Assembly (NCBI GenBank): GCA_003522085.1
Contig: DPGI01000009.1
Coordinates: 151,396-215,395, forward strand
From: Clostridiales bacterium
GTDB taxonomy: Bacteria > Bacillota > Clostridia > Christensenellales > UBA1242
Reading direction: 5' to 3'
DNA: 64,000 nt
Shown here: piece by piece, positions 32,911-47,571 of the stretch
Position numbering within the stretch: the stretch's first letter is position 1
Layout: each line of letters opens with the position of its first letter
Program-made: the position numbers and the translations under genes
Notes under the pieces: generated by a model
What the model was told of the DNA's origin: nothing
Seen by the model: the letters and a program-made list of their open reading frames with translations, nothing else
The model's database searches: none

Positions 32911-32916
32911 AGAAAA

Positions 32917-32945
32917 AGTATATTTAAAAGCGAGATTAAAAATTA
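32917..32945 (-). promoter_or_regulatory. -10 box abutting the sigma-factor ATG (leaderless candidate)
   Basis: minus strand TATACT (plus 32917-32922), then 6 nt to the ATG at 32910; weak -35; no SD. Confidence 0.4.
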
Positions 32946-33008
32946 CATTTAGCGGTATTTCATTTTGATAATATTGTCAAATATTGTAAAATTGTATAAA
33001 GGTGAGTT

Positions 33009-34424: not shown

Positions 34425-34484
34425 TATTATCAAAAATTTTACAATTTGCATATAAAAATATGTAAATTTTAGAAGGAGGGAAAC

Positions 34485-34973
34485 ATGAATAAGTCTAGAG
34501 ATATATTTTTAATTGCACTCGCATTTCTTTCATCGCTTTTGTTTGTTTTTGGTGGGGTAGGAATTTTTGCGAGCGTGCTTGTGGGAATTTTGATTGTCGG
34601 CGTGGCATATCTTGTTTTCAAAGATAAATCGCTTGCGGCAAGAACTTTACAACCTTACATAATTTTGTGTGCGGTTACTCTTGTTAGGCTTGTGTTTGAA
34701 GCAATTTTTGCCATGATTCTTGCATTTACAAACGATTCAACTGTTTACTCAAACACGATACAGGCAGCATCGATTGTCCGCGGAATTTTGATGATTGTTT
34801 TGATTTGCCTTCAAATCGTTGCTCTTGTGTTTATTTGCTGCAAAAAAGATGCGCCACTTGTTGGAACATTTGCAAATAAAATTGTTTCAAATCCAGTTGA
34901 AAGCAAAACAAAAGCTCAAAAAAGCAAGAAAAATGAGCCAGAAACAGACAAAACCGAAAACGAAGAAAAATAA
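34485..34973 (+). CDS. hypothetical membrane protein (4 predicted TM segments)
   Basis: 162 aa, hydrophobic segments, GGAGGG SD. Confidence 0.6.
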   Translation: MNKSRDIFLIALAFLSSLLFVFGGVGIFASVLVGILIVGVAYLVFKDKSLAARTLQPYIILCAVTLVRLVFEAIFAMILAFTNDSTVYSNTIQAASIVRGILMIVLICLQIVALVFICCKKDAPLVGTFANKIVSNPVESKTKAQKSKKNEPETDKTENEEK

Positions 34974-35030
34974 ACTTGGTGATTTCCAAGTTTTTTCATA
35001 AAAAATTTAGATAGTGAATATTATATCATT

Positions 35031-35537
35031 ATGATTAAAGAACCTATTTTTGAAAAGTCACGTCTAAAAAGTTTGGTTGCAGATTCGCCGATTGATTCTA
35101 CGTCGGCGTGTGTTGCGAAAGATATGAGTGATACTTTAAATTATTTCAGGCAACACGGCAGCGGAGTCTCATATATTTGCGCAAATCAAATTGGCGACAA
35201 CGAAAGGATTGTCGCTGTTTTTGACAGTGCAAACAACAAGATGAAATTTTTATATAACCCTGAAATATACACCAAGCGTGAATTGCAAGATTATTGGGAA
35301 GAAAGTTTGTCGCGCCCCGGTAGACTTTATAATGTAAAATGTTATTTTGAAGTGGTTGTTTATTATTTTGACGAAAATGGCTCGCGAAAACATATGATTT
35401 GCAACGGCAAAACCGCCGCACTAATTCAATCGGCAATAAGCACGCTGGACGGAGTGTTGCCGGAAGAACGCGCAAGCGAGTGTGCAATTATTGAAAATGT
35501 GGTCAAAATACTAAACGATAGCGCGCTAGAATTATAA
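35031..35537 (+). CDS. peptide deformylase homolog lacking the catalytic/metal-binding residues
   Basis: collinear with Def. Motif 1 GIGLAAxQ is GVSYICANQ, motif 2 EGCLS is EESLS, and motif 3 QHExDH is QSAIST. Confidence 0.75.
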   Translation: MIKEPIFEKSRLKSLVADSPIDSTSACVAKDMSDTLNYFRQHGSGVSYICANQIGDNERIVAVFDSANNKMKFLYNPEIYTKRELQDYWEESLSRPGRLYNVKCYFEVVVYYFDENGSRKHMICNGKTAALIQSAISTLDGVLPEERASECAIIENVVKILNDSALEL

Positions 35538-35543
35538 AATCAT

Positions 35544-35572
35544 TTGCAAATCTTAAAAATTTCGACTAATAT
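35544..35572 (+). promoter_or_regulatory. consensus promoter abutting the ATG at 35579 (leaderless candidate)
   Basis: TTGCAA(35544-35549), 17 nt, TAATAT(35567-35572), then 6 nt to the ATG. Confidence 0.6.
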
Positions 35573-35578
35573 ATAGTT

Positions 35579-36850
35579 ATGTTAGATTTGCAAATTTCAG
35601 ATTTAGGAGCAAACGGAAGCGGAGTCGCTAAACAGGGTGGCTTCGTTTATTTTGTTCCATTTTCAATCGACGGTGAAATGGTGGAAGCTGAGATTGTAAA
35701 ATCTGAAAAACGATATGCCGTGGCAAAGGTCACAAAAGTGATTGAAAAATCAGCCTATCGCACAAAACCTGCTTGCCCTTATTTTGAAAAATGTGGTGGT
35801 TGCTCGTTGCAACATATGACCTATCAAAAGCAACTTGCATATAAGACGAATTTTATCAAAAACGAACTTTATCGCGCTTTTGGTTGCGAAATTGCCATTG
35901 ATGAATGTTTTCCATCAAAAAATCAATTAAATTATCGAAATAAAATCAATTTTAATATAAAAAACAATAAATTATGTTTTTTAGATGTAAATAATCAGCC
36001 AATTCAAATCAATTATTGCCCTTTATTTTGCTCGGAAATAAATAAAAATATAATTTCAATTTTTAATAATTATTTTTCAGAAATAAAAAATAAATTTTTT
36101 GCATTACATATCAGAAAAATATCTGAAAAATATCAATTTACGCTAATTTCAAGCGATTTTGAGTTGAAAAATCAGGAAAAACTTGTAAATTCTTTAAAAC
36201 TACTCGAAATTCAGTTTTCTTTGTTTGTTTCAAAAAGTGTGTCGCAAACTAGTTCAAATATAACTGACAATATTGTTTGTAAATATGGCGAACCAGCAGT
36301 TAGTTATAATGTTGGCGGGGCGAGTTGCCAAGTTTCTCCAGGAGCATTTTTGCAAGTAAACGAAGATGTGCAAAATGAAATTTACAAGCAAATATCGGTC
36401 ATGATAAAACCAAATTCAAGAATTGTAAACGCTTATGGCGGCACAGGGATTTTGGCGGTTGCGCTTGCAAAAGAAGTTGAAAAAGTTTTTTCTATCGAAA
36501 TAAATAAAGCTGCGGCAGGTGATTGCAAACAGCTTTTTGAAAACAACAAAATAGAAAATGCCATCAGCATTTGCGGTGACTGCAAATATGAAGTGCCAAA
36601 ACTTTTGAAAAAAGAAAAAATCGATGCGGTGATTTTAGATCCGCCAAGAAGCGGGGTTGAAAAGTCGATTCTTGATATGATAAAAAAGACAGACATACAA
36701 GAAATTATATATCTGTCGTGCAGTCCTCAAACGCTTATTCGTGATTTAAAAGTGCTGCAAGAATGTTTTTATATTGATAGTGTTAAACCTTATGATATGT
36801 TTCCACAAACTTATCATATTGAAACACTTGTTAAATTGTCAAGAAAGTGA
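35579..36850 (+). CDS. 23S rRNA (uracil-5-)-methyltransferase, RumA/TrmA family
   Basis: N-terminal TRAM domain, Fe-S Cys cluster CPYFEKCGGCSLQH, SAM fold, DPPRSG and catalytic YLSCSPQTLIRDL. Confidence 0.9.
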   Translation: MLDLQISDLGANGSGVAKQGGFVYFVPFSIDGEMVEAEIVKSEKRYAVAKVTKVIEKSAYRTKPACPYFEKCGGCSLQHMTYQKQLAYKTNFIKNELYRAFGCEIAIDECFPSKNQLNYRNKINFNIKNNKLCFLDVNNQPIQINYCPLFCSEINKNIISIFNNYFSEIKNKFFALHIRKISEKYQFTLISSDFELKNQEKLVNSLKLLEIQFSLFVSKSVSQTSSNITDNIVCKYGEPAVSYNVGGASCQVSPGAFLQVNEDVQNEIYKQISVMIKPNSRIVNAYGGTGILAVALAKEVEKVFSIEINKAAAGDCKQLFENNKIENAISICGDCKYEVPKLLKKEKIDAVILDPPRSGVEKSILDMIKKTDIQEIIYLSCSPQTLIRDLKVLQECFYIDSVKPYDMFPQTYHIETLVKLSRK

Positions 36851-37438
36851 TTAAATCAACTTTAAATTTTCGTCTTTATCCCAAAAGTTTGTTTTCATAT
36901 CTAAAAAATGCATAATATCATTTTCATCATAAAGGTGGAAGTGACTTAAATCGCAACCAATATTGAAGCCAAAACTTTTATAAATCCCCATAGCGTTGTG
37001 GCTGTGTCCAAAAAGCGTCAACATTGTTTTGCTGTGATTTATTGGCTTGTGTGTAAGATAAAAGGCTCTGTGTTTTATCTTAATTTTATCGTGATATTTC
37101 ACATCAAGATAGCCAAGTTTTAAACAATATTGCCTAAATGCTTCAAAATCATTGTTAAAAAAGTATTTTACAACTCTTTCTTCATTGTTGCCCATAATCA
37201 ATATGATTTTAGAGTTGATTTTTTTTACGATATTTAAACTTTTCTTCCATGTGTCGTTGTCTTTGTTATGGCAATCGACCAAATCTCCAATGACATATAT
37301 AATATCGTTGCCGTCTACTTGGCTGTTCCAAGTTTTTACGAGATATCTTTCAAATTGTTTATAATCTTTGAATGGGCGTTTGTTTAATATAAGGTTATAA
37401 TTGTTGCCAAGATGTAAGTCGCTTGTGAAATAATACAT
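36851..37438 (-). CDS. small metallophosphoesterase (calcineurin-like)
   Basis: 195 aa; SDLHLG, VIGDLVD, MGNNE, GHSH motifs; AGGAGAAAAAC SD. Confidence 0.8.
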   Translation of the reverse strand: MYYFTSDLHLGNNYNLILNKRPFKDYKQFERYLVKTWNSQVDGNDIIYVIGDLVDCHNKDNDTWKKSLNIVKKINSKIILIMGNNEERVVKYFFNNDFEAFRQYCLKLGYLDVKYHDKIKIKHRAFYLTHKPINHSKTMLTLFGHSHNAMGIYKSFGFNIGCDLSHFHLYDENDIMHFLDMKTNFWDKDENLKLI

Positions 37439-37530
37439 GTTTTTCTCCTGTTACAATTAAAGTATAACATGCAAAACGAGAAAAAGCCAACAAAATTTAT
37501 GAATGAGATTGTAATTTTTTCATGCTCTTG

Positions 37531-37559
37531 AATAATTGTTGGTTGTGTGTTATAATTAA
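37531..37559 (+). promoter_or_regulatory. promoter of the DUF3800 gene
   Basis: TTGAAT, 17 nt, TGtTATAAT, followed by an AGGAGA SD. Confidence 0.55.
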
Positions 37560-37574
37560 ATATAGGAGAAAATT

Positions 37575-38381
37575 ATGCAATATCTATTGTTTGTTGACGA
37601 CACTGGATTTAACAAAAATAAAAACTCAAAAAGGCTTAACGACGAAAAAATTTCGATGGTTGGCTGTTTGGTGGCGGTTGATAAAATTCAAGACCTTGCA
37701 AATGAATTAAATTTTCAGCTTAGCGAACTTAAAGAGCTCTACAATGCCGACGAATATCATTTTACTGACATTTGCAATCATAAAAATCAATTTGAAGGCA
37801 TTGACGGTTACGATGCACTTTCAATGATTCAACTGTTTGCTGAAATCATAAAAGAATATGACATAAAAATTGTTACGCAAACAATAACCAGCGAAATGCT
37901 AGAAAAGAAGGGCGACCTTATCGCTGGCGTGGATGCAATTGCGAGAGAATGCGGATTTTCAAGCAAAAGCGAAGCGCAAAAAAACGAAAGCCGCGCGCTT
38001 ATTTTGAATATTTTAGATGCTAAAAAATACGTTGAGTCATTAAGCGGCGACAACGAAATTGCAGCTGTATTTTGCGACGAAGGGTTGAGGAAAAATAACG
38101 CCGAAACAAAAATTAAACTTGGCGGCAAAGATGTTGAAATCGATTTTTGCTCGTCAAAGGAGTTTCCATATTTGCAAATAGCCGATTTTGCGGCATGGGC
38201 GCTTACTAGAAGCAAGTTGAATTTAGAAAAGTCACAGGAAAAAGAGATGAAAGACTTTGATTTGATGACAATGAAAATTTTGGAAGATATAGTGCCAAAC
38301 TACATAAACATCGAAGCCGTTTCAACTAATGCCGGATATGGAATAAACATAGACAAAACTTTTGATGAAATTATTAAATAA
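37575..38381 (+). CDS. DUF3800-family protein
   Basis: 268 aa; N-terminal LLFVDDTG (hhhDESG-like), mid EYHFTDI, C-terminal YLQIADFAAWAL (LQ.AD signature). Confidence 0.65.
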   Translation: MQYLLFVDDTGFNKNKNSKRLNDEKISMVGCLVAVDKIQDLANELNFQLSELKELYNADEYHFTDICNHKNQFEGIDGYDALSMIQLFAEIIKEYDIKIVTQTITSEMLEKKGDLIAGVDAIARECGFSSKSEAQKNESRALILNILDAKKYVESLSGDNEIAAVFCDEGLRKNNAETKIKLGGKDVEIDFCSSKEFPYLQIADFAAWALTRSKLNLEKSQEKEMKDFDLMTMKILEDIVPNYINIEAVSTNAGYGINIDKTFDEIIK

Positions 38382-38382
38382 A

Positions 38383-38405
38383 GCACCCCGACGGGTGTTT
38401 TATTT
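38383..38405 (+). terminator. terminator after the DUF3800 gene
   Basis: caccc-cgac-gggtg hairpin followed by T-rich tract. Confidence 0.55.
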
Positions 38406-38590
38406 GAGACAAAATTAAAATTATGCTTTAAAAATGTCTAAAATAAGTGCTAAATCTGATATGTCTTTTTAAGATATATGTTATACTAAAATCGTTAGGA
38501 GAACGCATGTAAAAATGCGTCTTCGGCAAAATGAATGATAAAGAATTTATAAAAGTGCAATTTTAAAAAATTGCGGTGTTGGAGCAAAAA

Positions 38591-39097
38591 ATGAGATTGA
38601 TAAGCATAGACATAAACGATAAAAAGAATTTTGATATTTTTCTTCAACAAATTAAAAAATCTTTTCCCGCAAGCGAAAGAACTGAAAGAGAAGAGTATGT
38701 TAAGTTTGTTGCTTTTGGGGGACAACCATATTTTATATTGGACGACGAAACAACGGTAGGCGTTTGCTATGTGTTTGAAGGAACAAATATGGCGTATGTG
38801 TATTATCTTGCCATAAATGAAGATTTACGAAACAACGGGCTTGGCTCGAAGACAATCAAAACGCTTAAAAATTATTTTTTTAAAAAACCGCTTGTGCTGT
38901 CTATTGAAGACATAGAAAGTGGGAATGAAACCGCTTTAAGAAGATACAAATTTTACACAAAAAATGGCTTTACACATCAAAACTTGTCGTATACATGGCA
39001 GGGGGTTAGGCTTATGATGCTCAGCGATGAAAGGGTTGATATTTTTGAATATCAAAACACTTTTGGAAAATTGTTTAATTATTCTGATTATAAATAA
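38591..39097 (+). CDS. GNAT-family N-acetyltransferase
   Basis: YYLAINEDLRNNGLGSKTIKTL matches the acetyl-CoA motif A (Q/R-x-x-G-x-G/A); ATG at 38591 follows a GGAGCA SD (track start 38576). Confidence 0.7.
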   Translation: MRLISIDINDKKNFDIFLQQIKKSFPASERTEREEYVKFVAFGGQPYFILDDETTVGVCYVFEGTNMAYVYYLAINEDLRNNGLGSKTIKTLKNYFFKKPLVLSIEDIESGNETALRRYKFYTKNGFTHQNLSYTWQGVRLMMLSDERVDIFEYQNTFGKLFNYSDYK

Positions 39098-39157
39098 AGT
39101 CACAAAACGACTTTTTGGGGGAGTATGAAAATTTAAAAAACAATTTGCGCACTTGCA

Positions 39158-39754
39158 TTGATGCTGTGTCTTGGCGTTTCAGCCGTGTTGCTTACGGCGT
39201 GCGGGGGGAATGACGTGTCAAGCTTGTTTGGGAAAACACTTTCGTTTTATGGATATGCAAACATTTCTGAACACAACTATACAGTAGAAAATAAAACCAT
39301 GAAACTTGACGCGCTTGTAAAAGATTATTTTGACAAAATCGATTGGAATGCAACTCTTGGAAAAAGCAAAGAAGAAGTTAAAGATTCAAACAATGCGATG
39401 AGAATTATGTCAGAGCAAATCTATCAAAATGTTGATGAAAAAGCCCTTAAAGCTGTCAAATTTGAATTTTCAAGCGAAGAAGCCGCCAAAGTTACTGTTG
39501 ACGGGAATGAATATGCCATAAATTTACATACACTTTACGAGTATAGATTTAAAACCGGAAAAGATGAAGAAGAAATAACCATCAGATATGAGGGCGACAA
39601 CGCATTCAGCTATGGCACGAATGCTTGGAATAATTCAGCCTTGCCAATAAGTGAGACAAACACAGTTTTTATTAAATTTTTACAACCAACCGAAATTGCT
39701 GACGGGCAAACGGGAGACATATGCGTCTCAGGTAGAGTTTTATACAAAGCATAA
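39158..39754 (+). CDS. lipoprotein (lipobox LLTAC)
   Basis: MLCLGVSAVLLTACGG. An in-frame ATG at 39125 with a better n-region is separated from it by a TAA at 39134-39136. Confidence 0.65.
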   Translation: MMLCLGVSAVLLTACGGNDVSSLFGKTLSFYGYANISEHNYTVENKTMKLDALVKDYFDKIDWNATLGKSKEEVKDSNNAMRIMSEQIYQNVDEKALKAVKFEFSSEEAAKVTVDGNEYAINLHTLYEYRFKTGKDEEEITIRYEGDNAFSYGTNAWNNSALPISETNTVFIKFLQPTEIADGQTGDICVSGRVLYKA

Positions 39755-39756
39755 AC

Positions 39757-39815
39757 AAAAAATCCAAGATATCGATTAGAGCTTCAGCTCATTTGATTTC
39801 TTGGATTTTTATTTT
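39757..39815 (+). terminator. terminator-like hairpin after the lipoprotein gene
   Basis: atccaaga...tcttggat stem with an inner gagc/gctc stem, then a T-run. Confidence 0.5.
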
Positions 39816-39894
39816 GTCATTTTATAGCGTGATAACATTTTATTGTTAATCATTTAAAAATTAACATAGTAAAACAATTTCAAAGCATTCTTAT

Positions 39895-39933
39895 AAAAAA
39901 TACGCACCCCAGCACACCTTATCAGGGTGCGTA
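39895..39933 (-). terminator. terminator hairpin next to the displaced tRNA-Ser 3' fragment
   Basis: tacgcaccc/gggtgcgta 9-bp stem with a T6 run on the minus strand. Confidence 0.6.
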
Positions 39934-39941
39934 TATTTTGT

Positions 39942-39955
39942 TGGCGGAGACGATG
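39942..39955 (-). repeat. partial copy of the tRNA-Ser 3' end (att-like direct repeat)
   Basis: TGGCGGAGACGATG versus TGGCGGAGACGGTG at 45794-45807. Both copies are preceded by AGGGTGCGTA (39924-39933 and 45773-45782). Confidence 0.65.
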
Positions 39956-40012
39956 CTATCCAATTCTAACTTTAAAGTCTATGTTGGTGATAGGTGGATT
40001 AAGATTTGTTGT

Positions 40013-41113
40013 TTAATCTAAAGGTGGAAATCCTGTATAACATTTTTGAGCATTGGCATGTCCTAACACTCTCCCTATTGAAGTAATAGAAAATCCATTT
40101 GGAATTTTATCCCACCAATCGTGTATAACTTTTAATGCAGGAAACGTGTCAAGTTTTTCGTAGAATTTATTTAATACAATATTTTTCTTATCTGCGACTT
40201 TATCATAGAAATCAATAACTTTATAAAGACATTCCTTTTCTTCTTGCGATAAAGGTAAAATAGTGCCATTTGATTGAATTTTATCAAGTTTGTCAATTTC
40301 CGTTGTTTTTGTCAAAGGTAGTCTTACATGATTATCTATAAGTTCGTGGTCAATGAGGATATTTTCTAATCCATAAGGTTTTAATAAATTAATTGCTTTT
40401 TGATAATTTTCAGAGTTTTTATCAATGCCCACGCAAAAATAACCATCAAGATTTTGTAAATAAAATTCTTTTAATTTCTTTAACCTACAAAATGAATTTA
40501 ATCTTATTGCCTTTAAAATATCTAATTGGTCTAACCAATCATTATTATTGGGCAAGTCGCAAATTAAAAGACTTTCAAACAATTTATTCATTACATTTAA
40601 CCCTTCGGTTATATTGCCAGTTATAGGGCATATCCCTATTAAAATTGTAGTAATAACAGTTAGAGCTACAAGGCTTTCATCTGATATTTGTTCTACAATG
40701 TCTACAGCTCCATTAATTCCAATACAGCTTGCCTTATTGTTTTGTTTTTTGTATCTATGAATAAGCAATTCTGATAAGATGTTGTAATCACTTTCTCTTG
40801 TCGTTGTAGCGGCTTGAATTTGGGCTTTTCTATATACTAATTTAAAAGCGGGGTCATTGAAGATTTCTAACGCATTCTCTATTTCTGCTAATTTTGGAAT
40901 AAATCTATTTTCAAAATCATTCATTCTTTTTTGTGCCAACTCATCTGCGTTTGAAAAATATTCTTCCATTATTTGCTTTGCAGAATACTCTGAAATTTGT
41001 TTTGCTTTCTCTTCATCAAATTGAGTAATATGATTATGTACAATAGTTAGATTTTCGCCTTGATAATTATTTGAATTTGCCCCAGAACTAATTTCTTGAT
41101 TTCTTTTTGTCAT
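40013..41113 (-). CDS. hypothetical protein (366 aa from MTKRNQ), island cargo
   Basis: The track ORF 40013..41230 is trimmed to the internal ATG preceded by a GGAGAAAAT SD. No recognisable motif. My character-level reading of the homopolymers near 41105 and 41160 disagrees with the track by compensating 1-nt shifts, so the start has an uncertainty of 1 nt. Confidence 0.6.
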   Translation of the reverse strand: MTKRNQEISSGANSNNYQGENLTIVHNHITQFDEEKAKQISEYSAKQIMEEYFSNADELAQKRMNDFENRFIPKLAEIENALEIFNDPAFKLVYRKAQIQAATTTRESDYNILSELLIHRYKKQNNKASCIGINGAVDIVEQISDESLVALTVITTILIGICPITGNITEGLNVMNKLFESLLICDLPNNNDWLDQLDILKAIRLNSFCRLKKLKEFYLQNLDGYFCVGIDKNSENYQKAINLLKPYGLENILIDHELIDNHVRLPLTKTTEIDKLDKIQSNGTILPLSQEEKECLYKVIDFYDKVADKKNIVLNKFYEKLDTFPALKVIHDWWDKIPNGFSITSIGRVLGHANAQKCYTGFPPLD

Positions 41114-41267
41114 GATTATTTTCTCCGAATTGTATATTGTTGCAATTATCTCCAGACGAAATATTTTGTTTGTTTGTCTGTTTATTATTGTAAATTGATA
41201 TTCCACCGAATATTGCAGAAATAATAGCAAATATTCCGGATATTATTGTGCAAATAATTTCAACCAT
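41088..41267 (-). CDS. small single-TM peptide (about 59 aa) overlapping the start of the downstream ORF
   Basis: MVEIICTIISGIFAIISAIFGGISIYNNKQTNKQN...; AGGAGG SD 7 nt upstream and TGgTATAAT promoter upstream. The 3' end follows the track-consistent frame. If my literal reading is right the ORF stops near 41145 instead. Confidence 0.45.
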   Translation of the reverse strand: MVEIICTIISGIFAIISAIFGGISIYNNKQTNKQNISSGDNCNNIQFGENNHDKKKSRN

Positions 41268-41498
41268 AATTACCTCCTATTTAGTGCTTAATCATTATAC
41301 CATATTTTGTAAAAAAATGAAAGGTCTATAAGAAAAAAAGAAGAAGTGTTTTTCAACTTCTTCTCGTGGGTGTTTTATTGATTGTTTTGCAAGTGAGAAT
41401 AGACATCTTTTGCTGTTAGATTTTGGATTTTGCCACTAGATTCGGCGAAGTTTTTTATGTCTGTTGCAAACATTAAACTTATTCGTTTAAGTTGCTGA

Positions 41499-41774
41499 TT
41501 TGACAAACTTGCTTGCCAAAGACTTGTTGATATGTTTTTAAATAGAGTTGTTTTGTATGATGACCACTGCGATATTTATTTCAACACAAATGATGATAAA
41601 TCTAAACATCTTAAACTTAAAGAGCAACTAGACTTAGAAAGCGAAATTTTGTTTGAAAACAAAAAGAACACCACTAGTGTTCTTGCGTACCTAAAAAAAG
41701 AGCAATCTAAACTAAAAAGTTCGGATTACTCCCTAATGGCGGGGCTAACAAAGTTCAGATTGAACTATTTTTAA
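41499..41774 (+). pseudogene. possible C-terminal remnant of a large serine recombinase
   Basis: open frame ..LVDMFLNRVVLYDDHCDIYFN.. resembles the fi.kI.vydd..ieI.F tail of large serine recombinases; no catalytic domain upstream. Confidence 0.3.
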
Positions 41775-41900
41775 TCAATGATCATTTACGATTATCGTTT
41801 ATATTAAAACAATTATAAAATATTGTTTGTAATATTTTGTCGAATATATAGAAATTATTAAAATATATGTTATAATGGTGCTATAAAGTGAGGTAAACTT

Positions 41901-44876
41901 ATGAAAAATTTATTTTTTGTTTTAAGCGATATACATATGAGAGAAGATCAATATATTGATAAAAAATATATTAATGGAATTGGAAATGTTTTGAATTCAA
42001 TAGAATGCTTAGATAATGCCTGTGTAATTGTTGCTGGCGATTTAGCTTTTTCTGGAAAGAAAAATGAATATAGAAAAGTTGGAAACTTGTTTGGGCTTAT
42101 TACTAATCAGTTAAAGAAAAAGTTAGGGAAAGAAGATATTATACCATTCTATGTTGTCCCAGGGAATCATGATATTAATTTTGATGGCAATCCTCGCGAA
42201 AGAGTAGATGTAAGAGAATTGCACAATAATGGAACTATTGATAATGAAATTGATACTGAATTAACAAAATTTGGTTCTTTTTACGAGCTTGCAGAGAGAA
42301 ATAGATGTTTTTTGCACAACAAATTGTATAATTATAGATGTTTTGGAACTGGCGAAATTAATACACAAATCAATCTACTTAACTCAGAATTGTTTTCTAC
42401 TTTTATGGATAAAAATGGAGATGATGATAAAGGATTACACTATTTCCCTGAATCAAGTATTTCCAAAATAACAAAACAAAAATGGGCAAACTATACAATA
42501 ACCGTTATGCATCGAAGCCCAGAATGGTTTTCTTGGCAATCTTCACAAAATTTAAAAAATAACTTTTACAGGGCAAGTAATATTTTAATTTGTGGGCACG
42601 AACATTCTTCAGATATTCAAGACATAGAAAAAGAACAAAAAAATCTAATTATGGTAAAGACAGGGATGTTTGATTTTCGTGAAAATAGTTATTCATTCAA
42701 TTTAATCATAATTGACACAGAAAAAAATACATGCGATATAAAATATTATACTTGGAATTCTGAAAGACAAATGTATGTTATAACAACGGAACAAAATGAT
42801 ATAGAACTTAAAGAAATTGTCGTTGATGATTTGTTAAAACCAAACATTAACTTTACAAGAGAATTCCTGACTATAAATAATTATAAAGTAGATGAACTTT
42901 TCGTTTTTCCTGACATTGATAAGATCAATAATCAGCAAGATAAAAATGAAAAAACGATAAAAAATATGGATGAACTCTTTGATTTTGTGAAAGAAAACAA
43001 CATAATATATATTGAAGGTGATGCTATGGCCGGCAAATCTTCTTTAGCAAAATCATTTTATAGTAATAGCATAAAACGAAAGAAGATTCCATTATATATT
43101 GATTTAGATCAAATCAGTAGAAAGAAATATGAAAATATTATTCGAGACGCTTTTTGTGAGCAATATAGCTATAATAGTTTAGACTATGAGAAATTTAAAC
43201 AAACATTAAAAGAAGATAAGGTTGTTATTGTTGATAATCTAGATAAGATTCCTGATAAATTAATTGATGATTTTGTGTGTAATTTAAAATGTGATTTTAA
43301 AAAAGTAATACTTTTATATAAACCTAATGATAAATGTGATATCGTTGAATTAACAAAAAAAAGTTTGAATGATAATGATAAATGTGAAAGATTGAGAATT
43401 TTGCCTTTCTACCTAAGAAAAAGAAAGGAATTGATAAAAAATGTCTTGTGTACTTCAGTAAATAAAGTGGATAATATTGATAATAAAGTTACAGAAATAA
43501 ATAATTTTATTTCAAATCAATTACAAGTTTTCAGTATCAATCCTAATTTTATTACAATGTATGTGTCATATTATGTTGATGATATACACAATGCTGATGT
43601 ACAGACTAATCTGTTTAGTAAAGTATTTGAAACAAATTTAGTTAAATCGTTACAAAAATATATAAGCAATGAAAATATAGAAGAATATTTCACTATTTAT
43701 GAGAACTTAGCATATAAGATACATTTTGAGAAAAAGTATCCAATTTCAATAAATGATATACAGAATGTTATAAAGTCATATAATGATAAATATATGCTAG
43801 AAATTGATTGTGCTGAATTCAGAAAAAATAGTATAAAAGCAAACATTCTAGATGAAATGGATAATGACACTTTTAAATTCTTTGATAATTCATATCTTGC
43901 TTATTTTGTTGCGAGTGCACTAAATAAAAAGGCAAATAATGGACAAAAAATTGATGATGAATTAAGTTGGATATGCACAAATTTGTGCTTTAATATTAAT
44001 GGAGATATATTATTGTTTTTGTCTTACATAACAAAAAATGTCTCCATTTTGGATTATATAATTAAGAGTACAAAAGAGATAATGCAACAATGGACTGAAT
44101 TTGATATTGACAATAACAATATTTCATTTTTAAAATTAAATGCTGAGGAAAAAGTTGAATTGCCAACTAGTGAAGACAAAGAAATCCATGAACAAAACAT
44201 AGAAAAACAGGAAAAAGCAATAAAGAAGAATTTAGAAATAAAAACTAGATCAATATATGATGACTATGATGAAACGAAGTTAGACTCCAAAGCATATAAA
44301 GTAAATCAAGCAATGAGACACTTGGAATTAGTAAGTAAAATTTTACCTAATTTTAATCATCTAATTGAAAAGGATAAGAAACTTGATTTGGCTCGAGGGA
44401 TATATGAATATCCTAATAAGATTTGTAATGAAATTTTACATGAAGTGGATTCGAATTTCAACTATATTTTAAAAGACTTATTGCAATATTGTGAAGAAAA
44501 TAATATTGAAAAAGGTCAAGATAAAATAATAAATCAATTGCAAATACAAGCTGAAATGTTTATATTGAATTTATTTGATATGACTGCGAGATTGTCTACT
44601 ACGACTAAAACCATTAAAGTATTAGACTCTATTGAACTAAGAAGTATTAATAATTCAATTTTAAATGTTATGATGTATGAAAATCTAGGGAACTTCAAAG
44701 AATTTGCAAAACGTGCTGACGATATTTATGACAAATCTAAAAACCCATTAGTAAAAACTATGATAAAAAGAATTGTAAGAAAGCATTTCTTATGTAACAA
44801 AGATTTAAAACAAGTAGGAGATGTTCAAAGAGTTGCGGATAAATATTTTGGACAATCTAGAAAATATTTAAAATAA
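41901..44876 (+). CDS. metallophosphoesterase / NACHT-STAND-like P-loop NTPase / helical C-terminal domain fusion protein (991 aa)
   Basis: MPE motifs SDIH (aa 9-12), GD (46-47), GNHD (88-91), H204, GHEH (232-235); Walker A GDAMAGKS (373-380); Walker B VVIVDNLD (441-448); GAGG SD and TATAAT upstream. Confidence 0.85.
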   Translation: MKNLFFVLSDIHMREDQYIDKKYINGIGNVLNSIECLDNACVIVAGDLAFSGKKNEYRKVGNLFGLITNQLKKKLGKEDIIPFYVVPGNHDINFDGNPRERVDVRELHNNGTIDNEIDTELTKFGSFYELAERNRCFLHNKLYNYRCFGTGEINTQINLLNSELFSTFMDKNGDDDKGLHYFPESSISKITKQKWANYTITVMHRSPEWFSWQSSQNLKNNFYRASNILICGHEHSSDIQDIEKEQKNLIMVKTGMFDFRENSYSFNLIIIDTEKNTCDIKYYTWNSERQMYVITTEQNDIELKEIVVDDLLKPNINFTREFLTINNYKVDELFVFPDIDKINNQQDKNEKTIKNMDELFDFVKENNIIYIEGDAMAGKSSLAKSFYSNSIKRKKIPLYIDLDQISRKKYENIIRDAFCEQYSYNSLDYEKFKQTLKEDKVVIVDNLDKIPDKLIDDFVCNLKCDFKKVILLYKPNDKCDIVELTKKSLNDNDKCERLRILPFYLRKRKELIKNVLCTSVNKVDNIDNKVTEINNFISNQLQVFSINPNFITMYVSYYVDDIHNADVQTNLFSKVFETNLVKSLQKYISNENIEEYFTIYENLAYKIHFEKKYPISINDIQNVIKSYNDKYMLEIDCAEFRKNSIKANILDEMDNDTFKFFDNSYLAYFVASALNKKANNGQKIDDELSWICTNLCFNINGDILLFLSYITKNVSILDYIIKSTKEIMQQWTEFDIDNNNISFLKLNAEEKVELPTSEDKEIHEQNIEKQEKAIKKNLEIKTRSIYDDYDETKLDSKAYKVNQAMRHLELVSKILPNFNHLIEKDKKLDLARGIYEYPNKICNEILHEVDSNFNYILKDLLQYCEENNIEKGQDKIINQLQIQAEMFILNLFDMTARLSTTTKTIKVLDSIELRSINNSILNVMMYENLGNFKEFAKRADDIYDKSKNPLVKTMIKRIVRKHFLCNKDLKQVGDVQRVADKYFGQSRKYLK

Positions 44877-44979
44877 AAAGCAGGCCTGTCGTTTTATCAT
44901 ATAAGATAACGACATAACTCATATGATAGTATGTTAACCTGCCTAATATAGCATATTCATTTACATGAAAATTATGTTA

Positions 44980-45009
44980 AAAGCGAACAATTTTTTGTTC
45001 GCTTTTTTG
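44980..45009 (+). terminator. terminator after the 991-aa gene
   Basis: agcgaacaa/ttgttcgct hairpin followed by T6. Confidence 0.75.
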
Positions 45010-45019
45010 TTTAAAAAAT

Positions 45020-45720
45020 AAAAACCACCAGCTGTGCTGGTGAGAAATGAAAAGCTTAAGCTATGCGTAGACAAAAAATTCCTCCTAAATAAAAATAGTG
45101 TTTGCTGACACGAAAATTAATAATGGGGGGGGATTTTTTGTTTATGAACGAAAATAGTATAGCACATACAAAATGGAATAGCAAATACCATATAGTATTC
45201 ACACCAAAGTATAGAAGAAAAGCAATATACGGAGAATTAAAAAAAGAGATAGGAGCAATATTAAGAGAATTAAGTAATTGGAAAGAAGTAGAAATAATAG
45301 AAGCACACGGATGTGTAGAGCACATACATATGTATGTATCAATACCACCAAAAATGTCAGTTGCCGGTTATGTGGGGTTTCTAAAAGGGAAAAGTACATT
45401 AATAATATATGAAAGGCATTCAAACCTAAAATATAAATACAGCAACAAGCATTTTTGGTGTAGGGGTTACTATGTGGATACAGTAGGAAGAAATGAAAAG
45501 GCAATAGAGGAATATGTAAGGAATCAAGAGAAAGAAGATATTATGAGTGACCAAATAAGTATGAAAGAATACTTAGACCCATTTAAAAAAATTTCTCGTT
45601 ACACACAATGGGTGTGTTATGGGGATTATATAATTGTCTTGTAAAAATCTTTCTCGTTTGACAAAATGGTGATAAAGTGAGATGGATTTTCAATCTTTGG
45701 TTTTTCAAAAGGAATAATTG
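45020..45720 (+). mobile_element. IS200/IS605-family insertion sequence (boundaries approximate)
   Basis: contains tnpA; subterminal hairpin caccagc-tgt-gctggtg at 45026-45042. The right end was not defined. Confidence 0.6.
45144..45644 (+). CDS. tnpA: IS200/IS605-family Y1 transposase TnpA
   Basis: HTKWNSKYHIVFTPKYRRK, HUH motif EHIHMYVSIPPK, catalytic Tyr region GYYVDTVG. Confidence 0.92.
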   Translation: MNENSIAHTKWNSKYHIVFTPKYRRKAIYGELKKEIGAILRELSNWKEVEIIEAHGCVEHIHMYVSIPPKMSVAGYVGFLKGKSTLIIYERHSNLKYKYSNKHFWCRGYYVDTVGRNEKAIEEYVRNQEKEDIMSDQISMKEYLDPFKKISRYTQWVCYGDYIIVL

Positions 45721-45742
45721 CACCAAAACATTCATGTAAAAT

Positions 45743-45785
45743 AAAAAACTGCACGCATTTCTCATTTTCACGAGGGTGCGTACAG
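45743..45785 (-). terminator. terminator downstream of tRNA-Ser
   Basis: minus strand ctgtacgc...gcgtgcag hairpin followed by T6. Confidence 0.6.
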
Positions 45786-45793
45786 TTCTCTAC

Positions 45794-45886
45794 TGGCGGA
45801 GACGGTGGGATTCGAACCCACGTGCCCGGGTTAGCGGACAACTTGATTTCGAGTCAAGCTCGGTGCGACCACTTCGATACGTCTCC
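45794..45886 (-). tRNA. tRNA-Ser (anticodon CGA), CCA encoded
   Basis: manual cloverleaf: acceptor GGAGACG/CGTCTCC, 3-bp D stem, anticodon stem CTTGA/TCAAG with loop CTCGAAA, long variable arm, T arm GTGGG-TTCGAAT-CCCAC, GCCA end. Confidence 0.9.
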
Positions 45887-45904
45887 TTGTTTGCTTCATC
45901 CGCT

Positions 45905-45933
45905 ATTTTATCACGCATCATTTTTTTTTGCAA
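45905..45933 (-). promoter_or_regulatory. promoter of tRNA-Ser
   Basis: minus strand TTGCAA, 17 nt, TGaTAAAAT, about 18 nt before the mature 5' end. Confidence 0.55.
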
Positions 45934-46183
45934 CTCTTCTGATTAATTATTTTTTTCACATTAACCTAACAGTAAATAGCTAAAGCAAAGCTTGCATTAC
46001 TCCCGATATTAAATGCGGAGTGAAAACAAAATGCAACATATATTGTGATGTTGTTTTGTTCGTTTCACTCACAAATCTATTTGCCTGCTGCAAATAGGTT
46101 GCAAGCAACACCATCACAATATGTATTATCATCAGTTGCTGGCAAGTATCCCTACGGGCTGTTTGCCGACAACTTCCGATAAT

Positions 46184-46339
46184 ATAAGCGAAGCGAAAAC
46201 AAGAAGAAAAAGCAAAGCTTGCGTTACAACGTAACATAAGCGAAGCGAAAACAAGAAGTAGTAACAAAGCTTGTATGGCTACGCAACATAAAGCGAAGAG
46301 AGAAACGCTGAAAAACATAAAGAAGGGAGGAAGAAACAG
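46184..46339 (+). repeat. 52-nt-period tandem repeat (3 units starting at 46184, 46236 and 46288)
   Basis: perfect 23-nt core ATAAGCGAAGCGAAAACAAGAAG at 46184 and 46236; a degenerate third unit, ATAAAGCGAAGAGAGAAACG, starts exactly where the 83-nt inverted repeat begins. Confidence 0.75.
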
Positions 46340-46370
46340 GGCGAGGGCCCGAAAAACGGAGGTTTCTTAT
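46288..46370 (+). repeat. 83-nt leader, left arm of a perfect inverted repeat
   Basis: identical to the reverse complement of 47290-47372 (checked base by base); contains a GGAGG SD. Confidence 0.9.
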
Positions 46371-46371
46371 A

Positions 46372-46728
46372 ATGAAAATGCTTAATTTTATATCTATGTT
46401 GGGTAATGCATGGGAAAAAGCCCTAAAAAATAAGGAAGGCAAGACATATGCGGGTTATGAATGGCTGGTTGACCTTTTTAAATATCTTAGCCCAATTTTA
46501 TACGCAATCTTAGCAGTAGTTGGTGCGGCTGGTGTGATTTACTCAATTGTTCTGGGTGTTAACCTTGCAAAAGCGGAAGACCAGTCAAAACGTGACGAAG
46601 CAAAGAAAAGATTAATTACAACAATTATTGCCGTAGCTGTTACAGTAGTGCTGATCATTTTCTTTAACGAACTGCTTCCTCTTATTGTAGGTGCAGTTGC
46701 TAAACCTGGCGATATACCTGGAGCTTAA
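46372..46728 (+). CDS. small two-TM membrane protein, paralog A (pilin/VirB2-like topology, tentative)
   Basis: 118 aa. The core ILYAILAVVGAAGVIYSIVLGVNLAKAEDQSKRDEAKKRLITTIIAVAVTVVLIIFFNEL is shared with paralog B; the N- and C-terminal parts diverge. Confidence 0.75.
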   Translation: MKMLNFISMLGNAWEKALKNKEGKTYAGYEWLVDLFKYLSPILYAILAVVGAAGVIYSIVLGVNLAKAEDQSKRDEAKKRLITTIIAVAVTVVLIIFFNELLPLIVGAVAKPGDIPGA

Positions 46729-46742
46729 TTAAAATATAAACA

Positions 46743-46796
46743 AAATAAATCTCTAAAAAATTAATTAATAAATTAAAATTTTTTAGAGATTTATTT
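46743..46796. terminator. 20-bp perfect hairpin between the convergent paralogs
   Basis: aaataaatctctaaaaaatt / aattttttagagatttattt with a 14-nt loop. Confidence 0.7.
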
Positions 46797-46876
46797 TATT
46801 AAATGTCGAAATTTGAGAAACGTCTTTCCTAAGAATTGATAGGAAAAATGAATTGCATTTAATAAGTCACGCGCGC

Positions 46877-46909
46877 AAAAAAACGACCCGTTCGGGTCGT
46901 CTATTTTTT
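46877..46909. terminator. bidirectional terminator
   Basis: acgacccg-tt-cgggtcgt hairpin flanked by A7 and T6. Confidence 0.75.
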
Positions 46910-46922
46910 ATATGTTAAATTA

Positions 46923-47291
46923 TTACATATGGATGAAGCCGGTATTTTTATGATTTGGTAAATTACCACTATTGTTACCGCCGACAGCTTTGATGATCAT
47001 AGGGAATAATTCATTGAAGAAAATAATCAAAACAACAGTAACAGCAACTGCAATAATTGTTGTAATCAATCTTTTCTTTGCTTCGTCACGTTTTGATTGG
47101 TCTTCCGCTTTTGCAAGGTTAACACCCAGAACAATTGAGTAAATCACACCAGCGGCTCCAACTACAGCCATGATAGCGTAAAGGATAGGTCCAAGATATT
47201 CATATACTTGTGCAACCCAGTGTAAATCAGATTCGGCTGGGAAATTTGTGTTCCAATCATAACCTAACATCGAAGAAATAAAATTTAACAT
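46923..47291 (-). CDS. small two-TM membrane protein, paralog B
   Basis: 122 aa. It has the same core as paralog A. The central ~115 nt are nearly identical at the DNA level, whereas the flanks differ. Confidence 0.75.
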   Translation of the reverse strand: MLNFISSMLGYDWNTNFPAESDLHWVAQVYEYLGPILYAIMAVVGAAGVIYSIVLGVNLAKAEDQSKRDEAKKRLITTIIAVAVTVVLIIFFNELFPMIIKAVGGNNSGNLPNHKNTGFIHM

Positions 47292-47372
47292 AAGAAACCT
47301 CCGTTTTTCGGGCCCTCGCCCTGTTTCTTCCTCCCTTCTTTATGTTTTTCAGCGTTTCTCTCTTCGCTTTAT
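47290..47372 (-). repeat. 83-nt leader, right arm of the perfect inverted repeat
   Basis: reverse complement of 46288-46370. Confidence 0.9.
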
Positions 47373-47571
47373 ATTAAAAAAGGTTGAAAGTTTTTTTGTT
47401 TTAATTAAATTAAAACTTTTAAATAATATTTGTAAAAAATAACTTTCTATGCGAACTATTTATTTACAAGATAATAGTAGCATAAAAAAATTTTTATGTA
47501 AAATGATTTTACATATTTTTTTAAAAATTTTTAAAAAATTTTATTTTTCTTTTTTTACCTATTTTTTCCGC

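What the first reader, a model, noticed from the sequence alone, without database searches (positions are those of the whole stretch)
39942..45886. About 5.8-kb genomic island at tRNA-Ser(CGA), bounded by a duplicated tRNA 3' end and a duplicated terminator-like flank
Seen in the sequence: an intact tRNA-Ser(CGA) lies on the minus strand at 45794-45886. Its 3' terminal 14 nt, TGGCGGAGACGGTG on the plus strand at 45794-45807, recur at 39942-39955 as TGGCGGAGACGATG. In both places the motif AGGGTGCGTA lies 8-11 nt to the left (39924-39933 and 45773-45782). In both places that motif is part of a hairpin followed by a T-run on the minus strand, which looks like a tRNA terminator. Established knowledge: elements that integrate into the 3' end of a tRNA gene regenerate the tRNA at one junction. 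They leave a displaced partial copy, together with the native downstream terminator, at the other junction. Inference: 39956-45793 is an integrated and now decayed element. It has no intact integrase, only a possible serine-recombinase tail at 41499-41774, plus IS200 next to the tRNA. It has kept its cargo: the 991-aa MPE-NTPase and a small-TM plus 366-aa gene pair.
Basis: partly seen in the sequence, partly recalled or inferred. Interest (0 to 1): 0.65.

Follow-up and report, generated by a model that had tools for sequence, protein, structure and literature searches.

The report
Two-part defence island at tRNA-Ser
A 5.8-kb piece of foreign DNA carrying anti-phage genes sits at the 3' end of a serine tRNA gene; related strains have that site empty or filled with other cargo, so the island is real but of a familiar kind.

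Summary
tRNA-Ser(CGA) lies at 45794-45886 (-). Its last 14 nt recur, 13/14, at 39942-39955. A terminator hairpin with the AGGGTGCGTA motif lies next to each copy. The DNA between them has 27.7% GC, against 37.1 +/- 1.2% elsewhere. In two other strains (L018, L003; flanks about 96-98% identical over most of their length) base 39941 joins directly to the tRNA body. Other strains carry different islands at the same site. One of these (L014) has an intact 519-aa large serine recombinase (LSR) whose 3' end runs into the tRNA. Window 41502-41744 is the decayed tail of such an LSR (tblastn E 1e-29).

The island is therefore two remnants in tandem. Module A (39950-41744) holds a Vpar_1526-family gene, a small TM gene and the LSR tail. 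Module B (41745-45793) holds a 991-aa metallophosphatase-STAND protein, IS200 and a terminator arm. The 991-aa protein is a full-length homolog of the recently validated DS-8 anti-phage protein. An intact two-recombinase array (L039) has the same LSR/core/DS-8-like junction. This is a new member of a known kind. Its mobility and its defence function are inferred, not shown.

The parts
39893..39941 (-). Native terminator of tRNA-Ser (the B arm), displaced 5.8 kb from the tRNA by the insertion
   Evidence: The hairpin TACGCACCC/GGGTGCGTA plus a U-run folds at -18.9 kcal/mol, z -3.8. The same sequence abuts the tRNA directly in the empty sites L018 and L003.
39942..39955 (.). Left junction (attL): displaced copy of the tRNA 3' end. 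The core is TGGCGGAG, followed by ACGATG.
   Evidence: 13/14 identity to 45794-45807, with 0.11 matches expected by chance. The L014 island has TGGCGGAG + CCAACG at the same place.
39956..40002 (.). Left-end (P') arm of module A
   Evidence: It is shared with the left end of the otherwise different L014 island: L014 1-732 matches window 39274-40002 at 97%.
40013..41113 (-). 366-aa LPO_1073/Vpar_1526-family protein, cargo of module A, function unknown
   Evidence: NCBIfam NF045477 scores 92.8 bits against a cut-off of 45. Pfam PF28206 is on record for the same protein. The AlphaFold2 model has pLDDT 87.5 and no PDB or BFVD match.
41088..41267 (-). 59-aa single-TM protein that overlaps the start of the 366-aa gene; its partner
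   Evidence: ORF listed. The same small-ORF + Vpar_1526 pair is conserved in L090-L097. Homologs with a fused TM segment exist, P0166 and P0173.
41294..41542 (-). Backbone remnant of the parent element, including a truncated copy of an 80-aa ORF
   Evidence: 83% identical to L014 3579-3797 and also matches L044. tblastn of the L014 80-aa ORF gives E 1e-20 at 41378-41542 on the minus strand. L032 continues past 41514 as L014 does.
41502..41744 (+). Remnant of the C-terminal end (about the last 70 of 519 residues) of a large serine recombinase (the P arm of module A)
   Evidence: tblastn of the L014 LSR gives E 1e-29. The alignment has a stop codon just upstream, and real homology starts at DKLACQRLV. 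In L014 the same tail runs into the tRNA.
41737..41744 (.). Third, internal copy of the att core (TGGCGGGG): the junction between module A and module B
   Evidence: Homology of L039 to the window starts exactly at 41737, directly after an intact 578-aa LSR.
41745..41900 (+). P' arm of module B (CTAACAAAGTTCAGATTGAAC...) plus a conserved promoter-like region upstream of the first cargo gene
   Evidence: The arm is found next to the core in 7 metagenome contigs with unrelated cargo and in L044/L045. A TAGAAA-16-TATAAT site with TG lies at 41849-41876.
41901..44876 (+). 991-aa metallophosphatase + STAND NTPase, DS-8-like anti-phage candidate, cargo of module B
   Evidence: Pfam Metallophos and nSTAND_NTPase4. 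NCBIfam DS8_antiphage gives E 3.6e-113 over residues 8-967, at 379 bits, below the equivalog cut-off of 790. Catalytic and Walker motifs are intact. The DS-8 experiments are in PMC13092281.
45022..45674 (+). IS200/IS605-family insertion sequence (tnpA at 45144-45644); boundaries approximate
   Evidence: Y1_Tnp E 2e-34. NF033573 scores 134 bits against a cut-off of 55. Homology to L044 ends at 45021 and homology to L019 starts at 45675.
45675..45793 (-). Element-borne arm next to the tRNA ('arm2'), with a terminator hairpin that now terminates the tRNA
   Evidence: -26.9 kcal/mol, z -8.5. 97% identical in the L019 island, which has different cargo. It aligns with the terminator arms beside the core in other lineages, best with L101. 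No LSR homology was detected in it.
45794..45886 (-). Intact tRNA-Ser(CGA); its last 8 nt (CTCCGCCA) are the recombination core
   Evidence: ARAGORN; Rfam tRNA 55.9 bits.

Best explanation
The interval 39942-45793 is a fixed, composite genomic island. I think it was built by site-specific integration of large-serine-recombinase (LSR) elements into the extreme 3' end of tRNA-Ser(CGA).

Intact relatives show the plan of such an element: core, conserved left (P') arm with a promoter-like region, variable defence cargo, and an LSR gene whose last codons form the right (P) arm. Some relatives also carry a small backbone (80-aa ORF, HNH, DNA methylase, 260-aa ORF) between the cargo and the LSR gene. 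The LSR exchanges strands inside the 8-nt core TGGCGGAG, which is the CTCCGCCA-3' end of the tRNA. The tRNA is therefore rebuilt. Its native terminator, with a copy of the core, is pushed to the far end, and the element supplies what follows the tRNA.

Two such elements ended up in tandem here. Module A kept its cargo (the Vpar_1526-family gene and its small TM partner) but lost HNH, methylase and all but about the last 70 codons of its LSR in one deletion. Module B kept its P' arm and its first cargo gene, a DS-8-like metallophosphatase-STAND protein. The rest of module B is replaced by IS200 and a terminator-bearing arm. With no recombinase left, the island cannot move by itself.

The likely function of the cargo is anti-phage defence. 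For the 991-aa protein the model is: the C-terminal sensor detects the phage, the STAND NTPase oligomerises, and the N-terminal metallophosphatase effector is activated.

Shown: the insertion polymorphism, the three core copies, the LSR remnant, the separate occurrence of both modules' parts elsewhere, and the homology of the cargo. Inferred: catalysis by the LSR, the exact crossover position, the order of events, present immobility, and the defence activity.
For: Empty site: L018 spans both flanks with nothing between them, and L003 ends in the same junction.

Other islands at the same site: L014, L019 and L020.

L014 has an intact LSR with Resolvase, Recombinase and Zn_ribbon_recom domains, and its 3' end reads straight into the tRNA. 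Its two junctions share only TGGCGGAG.

Window 41502-41744 is the homologous LSR tail, E 1e-29, and is followed at 41737 by a third core.

L039 is an intact two-LSR array at tRNA-Ser(TGA). Its homology to the window begins exactly at 41737, right after LSR1, and covers an 89%-identical DS-8-like gene.

L100 is a complete 4.5-kb element at tRNA-Ser(GGA) with the same P' arm and a truncated LSR tail.

The module B P' arm is found beside the core in 7 metagenome contigs whose cargo is unrelated and mostly defence-like.

GC is 0.277 against 0.371 +/- 0.012.

DS-8 homology and intact motifs.
Against: The window has no intact recombinase, so integration by an LSR is inferred from sibling elements.

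The tRNA-proximal arm (45675-45793) is not a recognisable LSR tail. It resembles the terminator arms that lie left of the core in other lineages. Module B's right end is therefore not explained by the simple model; it may come from a third element, like the one in L019.

No contig among those fetched shows module B alone at this species' attB, and none shows a circular junction.

The window's attL has ACGATG after the core where L014 has CCAACG. This is unexplained.

The 991-aa protein scores below the NCBIfam equivalog cut-off for DS-8 (379 vs 790 bits). PADLOC 2023 has no model for either cargo system.
Confidence: 0.8

Rival explanations
1. This is a single element that integrated once. The internal TGGCGGGG at 41737 would be only the end of the recombinase reading frame, with no role as a junction.
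For: The two outer repeats and the empty site fit a single insertion of 5.8 kb. Every carrier strain fetched has both modules together.
Against: In L014 the LSR tail plus core abuts the tRNA itself. In the window, therefore, the DNA to the right of 41744 lies where the tRNA should be. Homology to L039 begins exactly at 41737. The sequence after the core is a P' arm found with the core in many unrelated contexts.
Confidence: 0.1
2. The island variants at this locus spread among strains mainly by homologous recombination in the conserved flanks (a replacement hotspot). Site-specific integration would have happened only long ago or in other hosts.
For: The flanks are mostly 96-99% identical among strains whose islands are quite different. 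L020 lacks the left terminator and core altogether. L017 and L049 have different genes between DUF3800 and the tRNA with no extra cores. The exact IS200 transposase was found only in this context.
Against: This does not explain how the junctions arose. The precise core copies, P and P' arms and LSR tails still require site-specific integration at some point. It is compatible with the main explanation rather than an alternative to it.
Confidence: 0.35
3. The island is ancestral, and the 'empty' strains lost it by deletion between the short direct repeats.
For: A 13/14-nt direct repeat could in principle support a rare deletion.
Against: GC and GC3 are far below the genome background. The sister lineage (L049, L017) lacks the island. 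The site holds at least three other unrelated islands. The junction structure matches LSR attL and attR.
Confidence: 0.05
4. A tyrosine integrase, since lost, made the 14-nt duplication, as is usual for tRNA-targeting islands. The serine-recombinase tail would be unrelated debris.
For: Duplicated tRNA 3' ends are the hallmark of tyrosine-integrase islands (established knowledge). A Vpar_1526 homolog travels on a tyrosine-integrase element elsewhere.
Against: There is no tyrosine-integrase remnant in the island. In L014, L039 and L100 an LSR gene or remnant directly abuts tRNA-Ser. In L014 the junctions share only 8 nt.
Confidence: 0.04

Closest known systems
Genomic (defence) islands integrated at tRNA 3' ends, including tandem arrays with partial tRNA copies and degraded integrases (for example tycheposons of Prochlorococcus, bioRxiv 10.1101/2020.12.28.424599)
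   Same: Integration next to a tRNA. A partial tRNA copy lies between successive elements. Integrase fragments remain. The cargo is variable and adaptive or defensive. Strains differ in presence and absence (for the published description; here).
   Different: Here the recombinase is a large serine recombinase, whereas 910 of 937 of those elements have tyrosine recombinases. The shared core is only the last 8 nt of the tRNA. The host is an uncultured gut Clostridia-type bacterium.
SCCmec and SCC composite islands of staphylococci (CcrAB/CcrC large serine recombinases at the 3' end of rlmH). This comparison rests on my own knowledge plus weak NCBIfam similarity.
   Same: LSR-driven integration at the 3' end of a conserved gene. 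Tandem composite islands separated by repeated att cores. Cassettes that have lost their recombinase. The L014 LSR's best NCBIfam hits are CcrB and CcrA (E 2e-32 and 2.5e-28).
   Different: The scores are far below the Ccr cut-offs (112 vs 900 bits), so this LSR is not a Ccr. The target is a tRNA rather than rlmH. The cargo is phage defence rather than methicillin resistance.
DS-8, a single-protein metallophosphatase + NACHT anti-phage system (DefensePredictor, Science 2026, PMC13092281)
   Same: Same length and the same domain order. The match to NCBIfam NF053861 runs end to end, residues 8-967 against profile positions 2-979 of 994, E 3.6e-113. The metallophosphatase motifs and Walker A/B motifs are intact.
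   Different: The score of 379 bits is below the equivalog cut-off of 790, so this is a distant member. The host is a Firmicute-type gut bacterium, not E. coli. It has not been tested against phage.
Cis-mobilisable elements (CIMEs) and accretion of ICEs in Streptococcus thermophilus (my own knowledge, not checked in a paper here)
   Same: Recombinase-less remnants flanked by att sites lie in tandem with, or next to, a site where related intact elements integrate.
   Different: Those systems use tyrosine integrases at fda. Here no intact element is present in the window that could mobilise the remnants.

Membership tests
tRNA-targeting integrative genomic island | Inserted at the 3' end of a tRNA gene, which stays intact | tested here: met
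   tRNA-Ser(cga) at 45794-45886 is intact and the island abuts its 3' end.
tRNA-targeting integrative genomic island | Direct repeat of the tRNA 3' end at the distal junction | tested here: met
   13/14 nt at 39942-39955, with 0.11 expected by chance.
tRNA-targeting integrative genomic island | Presence/absence polymorphism with a precise empty site | tested here: met
   L018 and L003.
tRNA-targeting integrative genomic island | Atypical base composition | tested here: met
   GC 0.277 vs 0.371 +/- 0.012.
tRNA-targeting integrative genomic island | Own integrase gene | tested here: not met
   The window holds only a remnant of about 70 residues of the LSR C-terminus. The gene is intact in the sibling island L014.
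Large-serine-recombinase integrative element | Recombinase with Resolvase + Recombinase + Zn_ribbon_recom domains | tested here: not met
   Absent from the window; only the tail remains. Present in L014 (519 aa) and L039 (578 and 554 aa).
Large-serine-recombinase integrative element | attB and attP share only a short core around the crossover, without long repeats | tested here: met
   The L014 junctions share 8 nt, TGGCGGAG. The window's internal junction shares TGGCGG.
Large-serine-recombinase integrative element | Imperfect dyad symmetry of attP about the crossover | tested here: inconclusive
   By eye, the reconstructed attP sites of L014 and L100 have GTT..../....AAC motifs about 47 nt apart, centred on the end of TGGCGG (sequences). 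No statistical test was made.
Large-serine-recombinase integrative element | Recombinase catalyses attP x attB integration | not testable with these tools
   Needs an experiment.
DS-8 anti-phage protein (NCBIfam NF053861) | Score above the equivalog cut-off | tested here: not met
   379 bits vs a cut-off of 790. The alignment is nevertheless full-length, E 3.6e-113.
DS-8 anti-phage protein (NCBIfam NF053861) | N-terminal metallophosphatase with catalytic residues, central P-loop STAND/NACHT NTPase | tested here: met
   Pfam Metallophos and nSTAND_NTPase4. Motifs D10-x-H12, GD at 46-47, GNHD at 88, H204, GHEH at 232, Walker A at 373-380, Walker B at 441-448.
DS-8 anti-phage protein (NCBIfam NF053861) | Protects against phage | not testable with these tools
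   Shown only for E. coli DS-8 (PMC13092281).
LPO_1073/Vpar_1526 family (NF045477 / PF28206) | Score above the curated cut-off | tested here: met
   92.8 bits vs 45. PF28206 is on record for the same protein.
IS200/IS605 insertion sequence | Y1 (HUH) transposase | tested here: met
   PF01797 E 2e-34. NF033573 134 bits vs a cut-off of 55.
IS200/IS605 insertion sequence | Defined ends with subterminal hairpins; further copies in other contexts | tested here: inconclusive
   The ends are only bracketed, at 45021 or beyond on the left and at 45675 or before on the right. The exact transposase was found only in this context.
Composite / tandem island (accretion) | Three or more att core copies in direct orientation that delimit modules, with module parts found separately elsewhere | tested here: met
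   Cores at 39942, 41737 and 45794. Module A's arms and backbone occur in L014 and L032. Module B's P' arm with a DS-8-like gene occurs in L039, L044 and L045.

The most novel reading that the evidence does not exclude
The conserved unit 'core + P' arm with promoter-like region + one defence system + terminator arm' may be a cassette of an array system driven by large serine recombinases, loosely like an integron, at the 3' ends of tRNA-Ser genes in gut Clostridia. A cassette without a recombinase would be captured, stacked and perhaps mobilised in trans by an LSR encoded on a neighbouring cassette. L104 and the window suggest this. The terminator arm would rebuild a usable attachment site next to the tRNA after each insertion. 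Within such arrays, the small-TM + Vpar_1526 pair, which has a confidently predicted fold with no relative in PDB or BFVD, would be a new anti-phage system.
Probability: 0.2. Interest if true: 0.65.

Novelty: new member of a known kind. Interest (0 to 1): 0.4.

Why it matters
The finding gives a precisely mapped example, supported at population level, of a defence hotspot in an uncultured gut bacterium. One tRNA-Ser site is found empty, or filled with at least four different islands. A family of large serine recombinases appears to target the last 8 nt of tRNA-Ser; examples were seen at the CGA, TGA and GGA isoacceptors.

It is useful in three practical ways:
- The attB/attP pairs could be tested as new integrase landing pads.
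- The conserved P' arm is a short DNA tag that retrieves further defence cargo from metagenomes. Seven hits with unrelated, mostly defence-like cargo came from one scan.
- It nominates two candidates for phage-defence tests: a distant DS-8 relative, and the uncharacterised small-TM + Vpar_1526 pair.

It does not change any general concept.

Tried and rejected
- PADLOC-DB 2023 gave no hit for any island protein. The database predates DS-8.
- Sequence search of the PDB found nothing for the 991-aa protein and only noise for the 366-aa protein.
- Foldseek of a confident model of the 366-aa protein found nothing at E <= 0.001 in PDB or BFVD. Its function remains unknown.
- PHROGs gave one weak family of unknown function.
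- The L014 LSR has no close relative in IMG/VR viral contigs. Its best GenBank phage relatives are about 40% identical. There is no evidence that the island is a prophage or a satellite.
- I looked for LSR remnants in the tRNA-proximal arm and in the L019 and L020 islands. None was found beyond the tRNA-encoded residues.
- I looked among all fetched loci for circular or excision junctions and for module B alone at this attB. None was found.
- I looked for other copies of the IS200 to fix its ends. The exact transposase occurs only in this context.
- Literature searches for Vpar_1526 and LPO_1073 gave nothing functional.
- Rfam finds only the tRNA in 39000-47500.
- The simple terminator scan missed both tRNA terminators because their loops exceed 8 nt. 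Folding confirmed them.
- The organism name is unsettled. The nearest GTDB representative (L049, RumA 93% identical) is labelled Eggerthellaceae. That conflicts with the low GC, the Spo0A gene and the Clostridia/Christensenellaceae labels of the next relatives, so I treat the label as a probable binning error.


Full report
**1. Observation**

ARAGORN finds a single tRNA in the window, tRNA-Ser(cga) at 45794-45886 on the minus strand. Rfam agrees and finds nothing else in 39000-47500. On the plus strand the tRNA 3' end reads TGGCGGAGACGGTG (45794-45807). The only other match with up to 2 mismatches in 64 kb is TGGCGGAGACGATG at 39942-39955, where 0.11 matches are expected. AGGGTGCGTA occurs exactly at 39924-39933 and 45773-45782. 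Transcribed from the minus strand, both flanks fold into strong hairpins followed by U-runs: -18.9 kcal/mol (z -3.8) and -26.9 kcal/mol (z -8.5). The interval between the repeats has 27.7% GC. Windows of the same size elsewhere have 37.1 +/- 1.2%, minimum 33.9%. GC3 of the two large cargo genes is about 0.20.

**2. The decisive comparison**

Look-ups of flanking proteins in public assemblies returned many contigs of the same species. Their flanks are mostly 96-100% identical to the window, except in the more divergent L017 lineage.

- Several contigs carry the same island (L001, L002, L005, L007, L021, L027-L030).
- Two show the empty site. L018 (ERZ28637120 scaffold_53) aligns to window 32224-39955 and then to 45773 onward. 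The two alignments overlap by the 32-nt duplicated stretch, and the tRNA follows immediately. L003 ends with the left flank fused to the tRNA body. Both contain TATTTTGT-TGGCGGAG-ACGGTGGG.
- The site holds other islands in other strains. L014 has DUF87 + SIR2_2, HNH, a DNA methylase and a large serine recombinase. L019 has a methylase + HATPase_c_3 + Z1 + DUF4420. L020 has a 1125-aa ResIII protein.
- The nearest GTDB species representative (L049) and the related L017 have yet other genes downstream of the tRNA, and no extra cores.

**3. Which recombinase**

In L014 a 519-aa protein with Resolvase, Recombinase and Zn_ribbon_recom domains ends inside the tRNA...GATTACTCCCTAA-TGGCGGAG-ACGGTGGGATTCG. 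The left junction of that island is ...TATTTTGT-TGGCGGAG-CCAACGCTATCC. attB and attP therefore share only the 8-nt TGGCGGAG. That fits a serine recombinase rather than the long identity segments of tyrosine integrases.

Window 41502-41744 aligns to the last ~70 residues of this LSR (tblastn E 1e-29, stop codon just upstream).

The stretch just before it (41294-41542) matches a backbone segment that lies about 5.6 kb upstream of the LSR tail in L014. A single deletion in the window therefore removed HNH, the methylase, a 260-aa gene and most of the LSR. L032 is a variant that is less deleted.

LSR genes or remnants also abut tRNA-Ser(TGA) in L039 and tRNA-Ser(GGA) in L100. The family thus targets the CTCCGCCA-3' end common to serine tRNAs.

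**4. The island is composite**

The LSR tail in the window is followed by a third core, TGGCGGGG at 41737-41744. After that comes not the tRNA but CTAACAAAGTTCAGATTGAAC....

An 89%-identical copy of the 991-aa gene lies in L039, directly after an intact 578-aa LSR. Homology to the window starts exactly at 41737 and ends at 44956. That element continues through NUDIX, a restriction-helicase and a second LSR to tRNA-Ser(TGA). L039 is thus an intact two-element array with the same junction.

A 73%-identical copy in L044/L045 is preceded by a terminator arm, the core and the same arm sequence. A scan of JGI metagenome contigs for core + arm returned 7 contigs with unrelated cargo:
- a DEAD/MZB helicase + RhuM + N6 methylase;
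- an SbcCD-like pair;
- an AAA_15 ATPase;
- a Schlafen AlbA_2 protein.

L104 holds two cassettes in tandem.

Hence module A is 39950-41744 and module B is 41745-45793. Module B is itself truncated. After the 991-aa gene come IS200 (about 45022-45674) and a 119-bp arm with the terminator. The L019 island, with different cargo, shares that arm at 97%.

**5. Unexplained detail**

That tRNA-proximal arm is not a detectable LSR tail. It aligns best with the terminator arms that lie left of the core in other lineages, such as L101. This explains the shared AGGGTGCGTA. Two origins are possible. It could be a shrunken P arm: the LSR tails of L039 and L100 embed a terminator hairpin in their last codons. 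Or it could be a captured host flank. I could not decide between these. The order in which the two modules integrated is also unknown.

**6. Cargo**

The 991-aa protein has an N-terminal metallophosphatase, a central STAND NTPase (nSTAND_NTPase4) and a C-terminal region of about 320 residues. It aligns end to end with NCBIfam DS8_antiphage (E 3.6e-113, 379 bits, below the equivalog cut-off of 790).

DS-8 is a single-protein system validated in E. coli. Mutating its metallophosphatase or NACHT residues abolishes defence (PMC13092281). All the metallophosphatase motifs and Walker A/B motifs are intact here. The NTPase part also matches TIR-fused proteins on Vibrio plasmids, as expected for a modular effector-STAND design.

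The 366-aa protein is a member of the LPO_1073/Vpar_1526 family. Its small TM partner is conserved, or fused, in distant homologs. The confident structure model has no PDB or BFVD relative. Its function is unknown; a defence role is suggested only by where it sits.

**7. Verdict**

It is a decayed, two-module island of the large-serine-recombinase type, carrying defence-type cargo, at a polymorphic tRNA-Ser hotspot. Tandem accretion at tRNAs, with partial tRNA copies and integrase fragments, is already described. This is therefore a new member of a known kind, of moderate interest. Two testable leads remain: the cassette-array reading, and the Vpar_1526 pair.

Noticed in passing
window 41088-41267 (-) and 40013-41113 (-): The C-terminal tail of the 59-aa TM protein (QNISSGDNCNNIQFGENN) repeats the N-terminus of the overlapping 366-aa Vpar_1526 protein (QEISSGANSNNYQGENL). 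Distant homologs P0166 and P0173 (442-451 aa) have the TM segment fused. The window therefore carries a split version of a membrane-anchored protein.
   Followed up: partly
L090-L097 (gene at 6001-7092 in each): A 40%-identical Vpar_1526 homolog, with its own 57-aa TM partner, lies next to a tyrosine integrase in an integrase + Rep + relaxase element. That element is inserted in at least 8 different genomic contexts, so the pair is recurrent cargo of mobile elements.
   Followed up: partly
window 46285-46728 (+) and 46923-47376 (-): Just right of the tRNA, two T4SS_pilin-like small membrane proteins (118 and 122 aa) form an inverted duplicate pair about 80% identical. A 96%-complementary 24-nt inverted repeat (46739-46800) lies between them, and a 52-nt tandem repeat (46180-46283) lies upstream.
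   Followed up: no
L104 4786-10007: A human-gut metagenome contig holds two defence-type cassettes in tandem: an SbcCD-like MPE + AAA_23 pair, then an AAA_15 ATPase. Each starts with the core and P' arm, and a terminator arm separates them. No recombinase lies between them.
   Followed up: partly
L032 1529-2359 (window 40161-40321 missing): One strain has a 161-bp deletion inside the Vpar_1526 gene (276-aa product). The same strain retains more of the parent element's backbone beyond window 41514.
   Followed up: partly
window 37575-39754; L017 2726-7656; L049 5826-10820: The stretch between the 195-aa metallophosphatase gene and the tRNA also varies between lineages. The window's lineage has GNAT + a lipoprotein. 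The sister lineage has DUF308 + NTPase_I-T, and an extra HTH/HMA/P-type ATPase block, without att cores.
   Followed up: partly
L020 2159-7476: In strain L020 the island at this site replaces the native terminator and left core as well; homology to the window stops at 39892. Not all variants at this site are bounded by att copies.
   Followed up: no
L049 (CAVCJG010000013.1): The nearest GTDB representative is labelled Eggerthellaceae. Its sequence, about 93% identical to the window's left flank, is low in GC, and the next relatives are labelled Clostridia or Christensenellaceae. This is probably a binning or label error.
   Followed up: no
window 41901-44876, residues 316-772: The STAND NTPase module of the DS-8-like protein matches proteins annotated as TIR-domain-containing on Vibrio parahaemolyticus plasmids at 23% identity (E 8e-8). 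This suggests that effectors have been swapped on a common NTPase scaffold.
   Followed up: no
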